Assembly: GCF_965641715.1 (NCBI RefSeq)
Contig: NZ_OZ282453.1
DNA from: Escherichia coli
GTDB lineage: Bacteria; Pseudomonadota; Gammaproteobacteria; Enterobacterales; Enterobacteriaceae
Reading direction: 5' to 3' (one strand)
DNA length: 64,000 bases
Positions 37,501 through 40,225 of this stretch are shown piece after piece. How positions within the stretch are numbered: the stretch's first letter is position 1; every line of letters begins with the position of its first letter. The position numbers are program-made.

Positions 37501-40225
37501 TTCCTCAACCTGCCAGAAATCGACCGTAGCAAACTGGAACGTATTGATATTCGTACATCGCAGCTGATTACACCGCTGTTTGAATATTCAGGTGCTTGCT
37601 CCGGTTGTGGCGAGACGCCGTATATTAAATTGCTGACTCAGCTCTATGGTGACCGGATGTTGATCGCTAACGCCACCGGCTGTTCTTCAATTTATGGCGG
37701 TAACCTGCCCTCTACACCGTATACTACCGATGCCAACGGTCGTGGTCCGGCCTGGGCGAACTCTCTATTTGAAGATAATGCCGAATTTGGCCTTGGTTTC
37801 CGCCTGACGGTCGATCAACACCGTGTCCGCGTGCTGCGTCTGCTGGATCAATTTGCCGATAAAATCCCGGCGGAATTACTGACGGCGTTGAAATCAGACG
37901 CCGCGCCAGAGGTTCGTCGTGAACAGGTTGCAGCTTTACGCCAGCAACTCAATGATGTTGCCGAAGCACATGAACTGCTGCGTGACGCAGATGCACTGGT
38001 GGAAAAATCAATCTGGCTGATTGGTGGCGACGGCTGGGCTTACGATATCGGCTTTGGCGGTCTGGATCATGTATTGAGTTTGACGGAAAACGTCAACATT
38101 CTGGTGCTGGATACGCAATGCTATTCCAACACCGGTGGTCAGGCGTCGAAAGCGACACCGCTGGGTGCAGTAACTAAATTTGGCGAGCACGGCAAACGTA
38201 AAGCGCGTAAAGATCTTGGCGTCAGTATGATGATGTACGGTCATGTTTATGTGGCGCAGATTTCTCTCGGCGCGCAGCTCAACCAGACGGTGAAAGCGAT
38301 TCAGGAAGCGGAAGCGTATCCGGGGCCATCGCTGATCATCGCTTATAGCCCATGTGAAGAGCATGGTTACGATCTGGCACTCAGCCACGACCAGATGCGC
38401 CAACTCACAGCTACCGGCTTCTGGCCGCTATATCGCTTCGATCCGCGTCGTGCCGATGAAGGCAAACTGCCGCTGGCGCTGGATTCACGCCCGCCGTCAG
38501 AAGCACTGGAAGAAACGTTACTTCACGAGCAACGTTTCCGTCGTCTGAATTCGCAGCAGCCAGAAGTGGCAGAACAGTTATGGAAAGATGCTGCAGCTGA
38601 TTTGCAAAAACGCTATGACTTCCTGGCACAAATGGCCGGAAAAGCGGAAAAAAGCAACACCGATTAAATGCTCTGGATAAGGATTATCCAATTCTAAAAA
38701 AAAGCCCGGACGACTGTTCGGGCTTGTCTTTTTATATGTTGGAAAATCAGTGGCAATGCAATGGCCCAACAGAAAATAAAATCTGTGACAATAAAGGCAT
38801 ATAACCCGCGCAGAATAACTCATAGAAAATTAAAAGTATAATTTTTATTTTGTATGTATTATCTTCGATACATTCACCAGACTTATTATCATTTCAGAGG
38901 AATTATTTGATTAAGGTTTTACTTAAGGCGTAACAAATGATATTTATCGGCTAACTGAACTTCTCCTTTAGGATGTTTTCACTCCCCGAAATGGGGATAA
39001 AAGGCAAATAAAATAACTAAAGGATTTATTCAATGAAAAGCAAAGTACTGGCACTTTTAATTCCTGCCCTGCTCGCCGCAGGTGCTGCACATGCAGCCGA
39101 AGTTTATAATAAAGACGGCAACAAATTAGATCTGTATGGCAAAGTTGATGGCCTGCATTATTTTTCTGATAATTCAGCGAAAGATGGCGACCAGAGCTAT
39201 GCGCGTCTGGGTTTTAAAGGCGAAACCCAAATTAACGATCAACTCACTGGCTACGGTCAATGGGAATACAATATTCAGGCAAACAACACTGAATCTTCAA
39301 AAAACCAGTCATGGACCCGTCTGGCATTTGCCGGACTGAAATTTGCAGATTACGGTTCTTTCGATTACGGACGTAATTATGGCGTAATGTACGACATCGA
39401 AGGCTGGACCGATATGCTGCCTGAATTTGGCGGTGACTCTTATACCAATGCAGACAACTTTATGACTGGTCGTGCCAATGGCGTCGCGACTTATCGTAAT
39501 ACTGATTTCTTCGGTCTGGTAAATGGTCTGAACTTCGCGGTGCAGTATCAAGGTAACAACGAAGGTGCCAGTAATGGTCAGGAAGGCACCAACAACGGAC
39601 GTGATGTTCGCCATGAAAACGGTGACGGCTGGGGTCTTTCCACAACATATGATTTAGGCATGGGCTTTAGCGCTGGTGCGGCATACACCTCTTCTGACCG
39701 CACCAATGACTAGGTTAACCATACTGCGGCGGGTGGTGATAAAGCAGACGCGTGGACTGCTGGGCTAAAATACGATGCTAACAATATTTACCTGGCAACC
39801 ATGTATTCAGAAACGCGTAATATGACCCCGTTTGGCGACAGCGATTATGCTGTTGCAAACAAAACCCAGAACTTTGAAGTCACTGCACAGTACCAGTTTG
39901 ATTTTGGTCTGCGTCCGGCAGTCTCTTTCCTGATGTCTAAAGGCCGTGACCTGCACGCTGCCGGTGGTGCAGACAACCCGGCAGGTGTTGATGATAAAGA
40001 TCTGGTTAAATACGCCGATGTTGGCGCGACTTACTATTTCAATAAAAACATGTCCACTTATGTTGACTATAAAATCAACCTGTTGGATGAAGATGACAGT
40101 TTCTACGCTGCCAACGGCATCTCTACCGATGATATTGTCGCTTTAGGTCTGGTTTATCAGTTCTAAATCCTCCTGCCCGCTGTTATGGCGGGCTTTTTCT
40201 GCTTATTCTTCCTCCTTTGATCTAA

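What the first reader, a model, noticed from the sequence alone, without database searches (positions are those of the whole stretch)
38694..38805. micC sRNA shares a bidirectional terminator with ydbK
One hairpin flanked by an A-run on one side and a T-run on the other terminates both the plus-strand ydbK mRNA and the minus-strand MicC RNA. MicC is conserved here even though its neighbour ompN carries an amber codon.
Basis: partly seen in the sequence, partly recalled or inferred. Interest (0 to 1): 0.25.

Follow-up and report, generated by a model that had tools for sequence, protein, structure and literature searches.

The report
micC sRNA with two-way terminator
This is the well-known E. 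coli small RNA gene micC, and its terminator hairpin also ends the oncoming ydbK (pyruvate:flavodoxin oxidoreductase) mRNA, which is an ordinary, already documented arrangement.

Summary
Rfam's MicC model hits window 38688-38808 (minus strand) at 125.3 bits against a cut-off of 90. The RNA (38805 to 38696) is identical to E. coli K-12 MicC except for a U8 tail instead of U9.

One hairpin (GC core 38704-38723) lies 36 nt after the ydbK/nifJ stop codon. It has A8 on one side and TTGTCTTTTT on the other, and it folds well on both strands.

In K-12 the hairpin and both tracts are identical apart from the A8/A9 run length. Published full-length cDNA data there place the ydbK mRNA 3' end at the first U of that U-run (window 38729). 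Of the reads reaching the site, 49 end there, 9 read through, and 1 ends within 50 bp downstream. The two RNAs therefore share a two-way terminator and overlap by 34 nt. It is strong for MicC and leaky for ydbK.

The ydbK-side U-run occurs only in Escherichia and varies within E. coli, so two-way function looks incidental.

The ompN amber codon is real (CAG to TAG at 39711). It does not make MicC's conservation surprising. MicC acts in trans on ompC, and two Salmonella subspecies keep micC with no ompN within 3 kb.

Verdict: correct, ordinary, already known.

The parts
38696..38805 (-). micC gene: 110-nt MicC sRNA, 5' end at 38805 and 3' end at 38696
   Evidence: Rfam RF00121 at 125.3 bits. 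Identical to K-12 micC (annotated 1437121..1437231) except U8 instead of U9.
38784..38805 (-). MicC 5' seed GUUAUAUGCCUUUAUUGUCACA, which pairs with the ompC mRNA leader
   Evidence: RNAduplex against the K-12 ompC leader gives -26.5 kcal/mol with the target at -47 to -14 from the AUG. None of 500 shuffled seeds did as well. The published duplex is cited in PMC5745476. The 17-nt core is invariant in Escherichia, Citrobacter, Salmonella, Superficieibacter and Pseudocitrobacter, but it was the search pattern used to find them.
38702..38725 (.). Shared terminator hairpin (GC core 38704-38708 / 38719-38723, loop 38712-38715). It has an A.C mismatch on the MicC strand and a G.U wobble on the ydbK strand.
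   Evidence: Across 12 taxa, 8 of 10 pairs never vary and one pair shows compensatory C-G to U-A changes.
38696..38703 (.). A8 on the + strand, which is the U8 tail of MicC on the - strand (terminator U-tract and the presumed Hfq-binding 3' end)
   Evidence: T7-T10 in all taxa examined.
38724..38733 (+). Interrupted U-tract UUGUCUUUUU for the ydbK transcript. Its complement is the A-rich stretch AAAAAGACAA of MicC.
   Evidence: Found only in Escherichia (Citrobacter and Salmonella have UUGUCAAUUU). Polymorphic in E. coli.
38729..38729 (+). Inferred 3' end of the ydbK mRNA, the position equivalent to K-12 1437197
   Evidence: SMRT-Cappable-seq Rich_TTS row for b1378: 49 reads end here, 9 pass through, 1 ends within 50 bp downstream, and the median read-through is 93 nt. 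Mapped through K-12 sequence L069 position 1698.
35143..38667 (+). ydbK/nifJ (pfo), pyruvate:ferredoxin (flavodoxin) oxidoreductase, intact at 1174 codons, convergent with micC
   Evidence: ORF. RefSeq annotation of 99.6%-identical DNA. K-12 ydbK.
39033..40166 (+). ompN porin gene, divergent from micC, interrupted by an amber codon at 39711-39713 (Gln227 CAG to TAG)
38812..38817 (-). Candidate -10 hexamer TATTCT of the micC promoter (inferred only)
   Evidence: Inferred from its spacing (-12 to -7) to the K-12-annotated 5' end. The consensus promoter scan did not call it.

Best explanation
The segment is micC, which encodes the Hfq-dependent sRNA MicC. Its 5' 22 nt base-pair with the ompC mRNA leader and repress OmpC synthesis. 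That function is established for the K-12 RNA, whose sequence here is identical.

micC is transcribed on the minus strand towards the 3' end of ydbK/nifJ. It stops at a Rho-independent terminator: a GC-rich hairpin followed by U8.

The same DNA read on the plus strand, 36 nt after the ydbK stop codon, gives a slightly more stable hairpin, because G.U replaces the A.C mismatch. An A8 run precedes it and UUGUCUUUUU follows. RNA polymerase coming from ydbK mostly stops there. About five in six transcripts that reach the site end 6 nt past the stem, and the rest read through antisense to micC towards ompN.

The two RNAs therefore have 34 complementary nucleotides at their 3' ends (38696-38729).

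What is shown here: MicC identity, hairpin anatomy, conservation and the ompN amber codon. What is shown elsewhere on near-identical K-12 sequence: the ydbK 3' end at this hairpin and the read-through fraction. What is inferred: that this 3' end arises by intrinsic termination rather than trimming, and that this strain behaves the same way.
For: - MicC model match at 125.3 bits against a cut-off of 90.
- Sequence identity to K-12 micC, and the same ompN / micC / ydbK arrangement.
- Seed-ompC duplex of -26.5 kcal/mol, matched by 0 of 500 shuffles.
- Hairpin z-scores of -5.3 (+ strand) and -4.7 (- strand).
- The + strand site is called terminator-like.
- A d'Aubenton-Carafa-type score is positive on both strands in Escherichia: +22.9 for the MicC strand and +6.3 for the ydbK strand.
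- K-12 full-length cDNA data give TTS 1437197 for b1378, with 49 reads ending there, 9 passing through and 1 ending within 50 bp downstream. This maps to the first U of the U5 run.
- Only 23-42 nt (36-38 in Escherichia and Salmonella) separate the hairpin stem from the nifJ stop codon in 28 of 31 enterobacterial loci (nifJ C-terminus not detected in the other three), which leaves little room for a separate nifJ terminator of canonical size.
Against: - No 3'-end data exist for this strain.
- The ydbK-side U-tract is interrupted (UUGUC before U5). It is polymorphic in E. coli: TTGTCTTCTT in strain S4 and TTGTCTCATT in B19429.
- That U-tract is absent outside Escherichia, where my score is negative. 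Two-way function therefore does not look selected.
- A 3' end at the foot of a stable hairpin can also come from exonuclease trimming.
- K-12 term-seq tables (Adams 2021) list no 3' end for micC or ydbK, probably because expression was low.
- Fabrega 2012, known here only through a secondary citation, reports ydbK-ompN co-expression, which implies meaningful read-through under SoxS induction.
- The terminator score formula was implemented from memory and is only a heuristic.
Confidence: 0.8

Rival explanations
1. The hairpin terminates only MicC. The ydbK 3' end seen at its foot is a processing product: transcripts that ran further, and ended by Rho or elsewhere, are trimmed back by 3' exonucleases to the stable hairpin.
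For: The ydbK-side U-tract is imperfect, with a marginal score of +6.3 against +22.9 on the MicC strand. It is not conserved outside Escherichia and is polymorphic inside E. coli. The read-through reads are short, with a median of 93 nt, which is compatible with decay intermediates.
Against: A single sharp TTS 6 nt after the stem with an A-tract/U-tract frame is the classical intrinsic-terminator signature, and the consensus scan calls it one. SMRT-Cappable-seq found predicted terminator structures at 386 of 408 of its TTSs. Trimming normally stops at the hairpin base, which cannot be told apart from termination here.
Confidence: 0.12
2. ydbK and ompN form one operon. The hairpin is functionally transparent to ydbK transcription, which runs antisense through micC into ompN.
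For: PMC6176095 summarises Fabrega et al. 2012 as finding ydbK and ompN 'coexpressed in an operon', activated through SoxS in strain NorE5. In K-12, 9-10 of 59 reads pass the site. According to Dam et al. the ompN transcription start is known only from prediction.
Against: In K-12 rich medium about 83% of the reads that reach the site stop there, and the median read-through is only 93 nt, which is well short of ompN. SMRT-Cappable-seq lists b1378 as a single-gene operon, the same as RegulonDB. ompN-lacZ fusions carrying only the micC-ompN intergenic region are active and regulated (PMC5745476). Partial read-through reconciles both views.
Confidence: 0.08
3. Termination of both RNAs is driven by head-on RNA polymerase collisions at an overlapping convergent site (the model of Ju et al. 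2019 and Wang et al. 2022) rather than by intrinsic terminator signals.
For: The transcripts converge with a 34-nt 3' overlap around a hairpin, which is the geometry described for such sites.
Against: That class is described as not resembling intrinsic terminators. Here MicC has a textbook hairpin plus U8. MicC is a low-abundance RNA (undetected in late-log or stationary growth), and neither micC nor ydbK has a 3' end in the K-12 term-seq tables, so frequent collisions are unlikely.
Confidence: 0.03

Closest known systems
MicC sRNA of E. coli K-12 (Rfam RF00121; gene b4427)
   Same: Same sequence from +1 to the terminator stem. Same neighbours and orientations: ompN divergent, ydbK convergent. 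Same 5' seed for ompC and same terminator hairpin.
   Different: U8 rather than U9 tail. Three base differences upstream of the transcription start at -15, -16 and -21. The one at -15 (window 38820) was not seen in any of 5,426 complete E. coli genomes. The neighbouring ompN is a pseudogene here.
Bidirectional intrinsic terminators between convergent E. coli genes (for example the can/hpt site shown by SMRT-Cappable-seq, PMC6131387)
   Same: One GC-rich hairpin framed by an A-run and a T-run serves both convergent transcripts, with different read-through in each direction.
   Different: One partner is a 110-nt sRNA whose whole terminator module lies inside the other gene's 3' UTR. The second-strand U-tract is interrupted and lineage-specific.
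micF-ompC locus
   Same: A porin-repressing sRNA transcribed divergently from another porin gene. Dam et al. draw this parallel, and micF lies next to ompC in K-12.
   Different: The sharing of a terminator with a convergent metabolic gene was examined only for micC.

Membership tests
MicC sRNA (Rfam RF00121) | Covariance-model score at or above the curated gathering score | tested here: met
   125.3 bits against 90, E 2e-19, full-length match to model positions 1-123.
MicC sRNA (Rfam RF00121) | 5' seed complementary to the ompC mRNA leader near the ribosome-binding site | tested here: met
   Duplex of -26.5 kcal/mol with the K-12 ompC leader (-47 to -14), matched by 0 of 500 shuffled seeds. 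This strain's own ompC lies outside the window, so the test used the K-12 target.
MicC sRNA (Rfam RF00121) | Conserved genomic position between ompN (divergent) and ydbK/nifJ (convergent) | tested here: met
   nifJ is convergent in 28 of 31 enterobacterial loci examined.
MicC sRNA (Rfam RF00121) | Rho-independent terminator with a poly-U tail (the 3' module typical of Hfq-dependent sRNAs) | tested here: met
   Hairpin plus U8. The stem is conserved with one compensatory pair.
MicC sRNA (Rfam RF00121) | Expressed as a roughly 109-nt Hfq-bound RNA that represses OmpC | not testable with these tools
   Known for K-12 from the literature (PMC5745476). There are no expression data for this strain.
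Bidirectional intrinsic (Rho-independent) terminator | A GC-rich hairpin that is stable when transcribed from either strand | tested here: met
   -17.8 kcal/mol (+ strand) and -14.7 kcal/mol (- strand), with z-scores of -5.3 and -4.7. The core stem-loop is -13.3 and -9.3 kcal/mol.
Bidirectional intrinsic (Rho-independent) terminator | A U-tract directly after the hairpin on both strands | tested here: inconclusive
   The MicC strand has U8, a clear pass. The ydbK strand has UUGUCUUUUU, 8 U in 10 but interrupted. The scan accepts it and the heuristic score is only +6.3. It is polymorphic in E. coli.
Bidirectional intrinsic (Rho-independent) terminator | Mapped 3' ends of both convergent transcripts flanking the hairpin | tested here: met
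   Met by homology to K-12 only. The ydbK TTS is at 1437197 and the micC 3' end is annotated at 1437231. The hairpin and both tracts are identical except for A8 against A9.
Bidirectional intrinsic (Rho-independent) terminator | Factor-independent termination demonstrated in both orientations | not testable with these tools
   Needs in vitro transcription or terminator-reporter assays.

The most novel reading that the evidence does not exclude
The leaky ydbK side of the terminator could be a regulatory device. When SoxS induces ydbK strongly, read-through RNA would be a perfect full-length antisense of MicC and would also carry ompN. It could titrate or destroy MicC, or occlude its promoter, and so raise OmpC while transcribing ompN. 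That would link oxidative stress to porin choice. Even the terminated ydbK mRNA carries 34 nt complementary to MicC's terminator and presumed Hfq-binding tail. In this strain the ompN arm of such a circuit is dead because of the amber codon, and only the antisense arm would remain.
Probability: 0.06. Interest if true: 0.45.

Novelty: already known. Interest (0 to 1): 0.1.

Why it matters
It matters little beyond correct annotation. PGAP-annotated E. coli genomes show no feature at micC. This window can be annotated confidently with the sRNA, its 3' end, the ydbK 3' UTR end and an ompN pseudogene.

A minor practical point concerns this same terminator sequence, which from my memory (not checked here) is the 'MicC scaffold' of synthetic sRNAs. 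It has an A.C mismatch on the sRNA strand and is a better hairpin in the opposite orientation.

If the antisense read-through idea were true, it would add a cis-antisense layer to porin regulation. Nothing here supports it beyond the geometry and about 15% read-through.

Tried and rejected
- **K-12 term-seq tables (Adams 2021, eLife 62438).** They contain no micC, ydbK or pfo 3' ends, only one 3' end antisense to ompN.
- **Unavailable sources.** The Dar & Sorek 2018 supplements are not held. Ju et al. 2019 (SEnd-seq) and Fabrega et al. 2012 are not held. Fabrega's operon claim therefore rests on a secondary citation.
- **Literature searches.** Searches for 'micC' with 'bidirectional terminator', and for 'ydbK-ompN' style terms, found nothing relevant.
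- **Consensus scan limits.** The scan did not call MicC's own terminator on the minus strand. The A.C mismatch leaves a 5-bp stem with a 10-nt loop, outside its rules. I treat this as a limit of the scan, not evidence against the terminator. The scan also did not call a micC promoter.
- **Is MicC preserved because of ompN?** Rejected. MicC acts in trans, and the two Salmonella loci have micC but no ompN match within 3 kb.
- **Is the ompN amber a private sequencing error?** Rejected. The exact 226-residue product is on record in 84 blocks of public assemblies.
- **Collision-driven termination.** Considered and judged unlikely (see the rival explanations).

Full report
**What is in the sequence**

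The window around 38.7 kb reads, on the + strand: the end of a long ORF (stop TAA at 38665-38667), a 36-nt spacer ending in A8 (38696-38703), the stem-loop GCCCGGAC-GACT-GTTCGGGC (38704-38723), and then TTGTCTTTTTAT.

The long ORF is 35143-38667, 1174 codons. It lies under RefSeq's 'nifJ: pyruvate:ferredoxin (flavodoxin) oxidoreductase' in E. coli genomes that are 99.6% identical. It is ydbK (b1378) in K-12.

Downstream on the same strand is ompN (39033-40166). It has a single in-frame TAG at 39711-39713.

**Is it MicC?**

Yes. A scan of the whole window against Rfam at gathering thresholds gives three hits. One is MicC (RF00121) at 38688-38808 on the minus strand. It scores 125.3 bits against a cut-off of 90, with E 2e-19, and the full model is matched.

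Aligned with K-12, the RNA is identical from the annotated 5' end to the terminator stem. The only difference is eight rather than nine Ts in the tail.

Its first 22 nt form a -26.5 kcal/mol duplex with the K-12 ompC leader (-47 to -14 from the AUG). None of 500 shuffled seeds reached that energy. This agrees with the published mechanism, in which MicC blocks ribosome binding on ompC mRNA (PMC5745476).

**The hairpin on both strands**

As RNA, the 51-nt segment folds at -17.8 kcal/mol on the + strand and -14.7 kcal/mol on the - strand. The z-scores are -5.3 and -4.7, and no shuffle folded as well on either strand.

The asymmetry has a simple cause. One stem position is an A.C mismatch in MicC but a G.U wobble in the ydbK transcript. 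The core stem-loop is -9.3 against -13.3 kcal/mol.

The consensus scan flags the + strand site as terminator-like (10 pairs, tail GTCTTTTTAT). It misses the MicC-strand site only because the mismatch breaks its stem rule.

**Does it really end the ydbK mRNA?**

I found direct evidence in K-12, where the sequence from the ydbK stop codon through micC is identical apart from the A8/A9 run length.

SMRT-Cappable-seq sequences full-length primary transcripts longer than about 1 kb (Yan et al. 2018, PMC6131387). Its table lists a b1378 transcript from TSS 1440845 to TTS 1437197 on the reverse strand in rich medium. There are 203 reads at the TSS. Of these, 49 end at the TTS, 9 pass through, and 1 ends within 50 bp downstream. 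The median read-through is 93 nt, and the site is labelled 'novelTTS'.

Position 1437197 is the first U of the U5 run, giving ...CGGGCUUGUCU-3', which is 6 nt after the GC stem. That corresponds to window 38729.

So about 83% of the transcripts that reach the site stop there. The ydbK mRNA and MicC overlap tail-to-tail by 34 nt (38696-38729). The typical read-through product ends near window 38822, just past the micC start.

The method's size selection excludes MicC itself. For MicC's 3' end I rely on the K-12 annotation and the Rfam model.

**Caveats on the two-way reading**

First, a secondary citation states that Fabrega et al. 2012 found ydbK and ompN 'coexpressed in an operon' under SoxS control in strain NorE5 (PMC6176095). 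I could not read the original paper. A leaky terminator with 15-17% read-through reconciles this with the K-12 data.

Second, comparative data argue that the ydbK-side signal is incidental. I collected micC loci from 31 enterobacterial genomes.
- The hairpin and the MicC-side T7-T10 run are present in all of them. In 12 representative sequences, 8 of 10 stem pairs never vary, one pair shows a C-G to U-A compensatory change, and the loop varies freely.
- The nifJ stop codon lies 23-42 nt from the hairpin stem (36-38 nt in Escherichia and Salmonella) in the 28 loci where the nifJ C-terminus was found.
- The ydbK-side tail is UUGUCUUUUU only in Escherichia. It is UUGUCAAUUU in most Citrobacter and in Salmonella, and UUGUCAUAA in Superficieibacter.
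- A d'Aubenton-Carafa-style score, implemented from memory and therefore only a heuristic, is +23 to +59 on the MicC strand everywhere. On the nifJ strand it is 0 to +13 in Escherichia and -3 to -25 elsewhere.

Within E. coli the hairpin is invariant, but the ydbK-side run is polymorphic: TTGTCTTTTT, TTGTCTTCTT or TTGTCTCATT. 3,754 of 5,426 complete genomes matched a 62-nt query spanning the hairpin and both tracts, the rest not being detectable at this sensitivity. Of those, 926 are identical to the window over the 62 nt, including O157:H7 strains.

**The ompN remark**

The amber codon is a single C-to-T change at 39711 (CAG Gln227 to TAG). Ten of the other eleven differences from K-12 are synonymous, and one is Val/Ile.

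The exact truncated 226-residue product is on record in 84 blocks of public assemblies. Six contigs I read differ from the window by 29-42 bases in about 3.4 kb. In all six the MicC RNA sequence is unchanged apart from the run length.

MicC's persistence next to a dead ompN is not surprising, because its target is ompC in trans. Two Salmonella enterica subspecies loci, with ample flank, have micC and nifJ but no ompN match within 3 kb. With about 1% divergence over 110 nt, the lack of changes is also weak evidence for selection on its own.

**Comparison with what is known, and verdict**

MicC, its position opposite ompN and its convergence on ydbK are textbook K-12 facts. Hairpins that serve convergent genes in both directions are common in E. 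coli. The ydbK 3' end at this hairpin already sits in a published table.

I found no paper that states in words that micC and ydbK share a terminator, but that is a routine corollary. The finding is correct and ordinary.

The only mildly novel possibility is that ydbK read-through acts as an antisense regulator of MicC. I rate this unlikely, at about 6%.

Noticed in passing
window 38674-38690: A perfect 7+3+7 palindrome, TGGATAA-GGA-TTATCCA, lies between the ydbK stop codon and the shared hairpin. Its arms are conserved in other Escherichia species. Citrobacter has a different palindrome (GTTAA-TAC-TTAAC) at the same place. It could be a small 3'-UTR hairpin or a protein-binding site.
   Followed up: partly
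window 38709 / 38718 (stem position): In the main E. coli lineage the terminator stem has an A.C mismatch on the MicC strand, which is a G.U wobble on the ydbK strand. The hairpin is therefore stronger for ydbK (-13.3 kcal/mol) than for MicC (-9.3 kcal/mol). All other genera, and several other Escherichia lineages (E. whittamii, E1V33, an 'E. coli' SCPM-O-B-8794), have a perfect stem.
   Followed up: partly
window 38820-38826 (micC -15, -16, -21): Three base differences from K-12 lie just upstream of the candidate micC -10 box. The T at 38820 (-15) was not matched by any of 5,426 complete E. coli genomes; the best match, strain HS30-1, shares the other two. The effect on micC transcription is unknown.
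   Followed up: partly
window 39711; loci L076-L081: The ompN Gln227-amber allele is not private. The exact 226-residue product is indexed in 84 blocks of public assemblies. It occurs on haplotypes about 1% different from the window, which suggests either an old allele spread by recombination or a recurrent CAG-to-TAG mutation. In those contigs ttcA follows uspF directly, with no prophage.
   Followed up: partly
window 25227-29725: Relative to K-12, the feaR-feaB-tynA-paa-ydbA(5') block (K-12 1446201-1472161, about 26 kb) is replaced by about 4.5 kb annotated elsewhere as an autotransporter gene next to ydbL.
   Followed up: partly
window ~41100-64000: A lambdoid prophage (tail tip J, tape measure, portal and terminase genes) occupies the Rac/ttcA site after uspF. 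It is 99% identical to prophages in pig E. coli strains and has only a 1.7-kb stfR-like match to K-12 Rac.
   Followed up: partly
window 5150-5301 (+) and 5861-5924 (+): There are two other Rfam hits above the gathering score: sok (109.7 bits, at the hokB/sokB locus) and RydC (92.5 bits). Both fit the K-12 gene order.
   Followed up: no
window ~39761, minus strand (K-12 1436165, + strand): A K-12 term-seq supplementary table lists an RNA 3' end antisense to ompN at 1436165 (Adams et al. 2021). An antisense transcript inside ompN would be co-directional with micC.
   Followed up: no
window 40175-40193 (+): A clean terminator-like hairpin, GCCCGCTGTTATGGCGGGC followed by TTTTTCTGCT, lies directly after the ompN stop codon and before uspF.
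   Followed up: no
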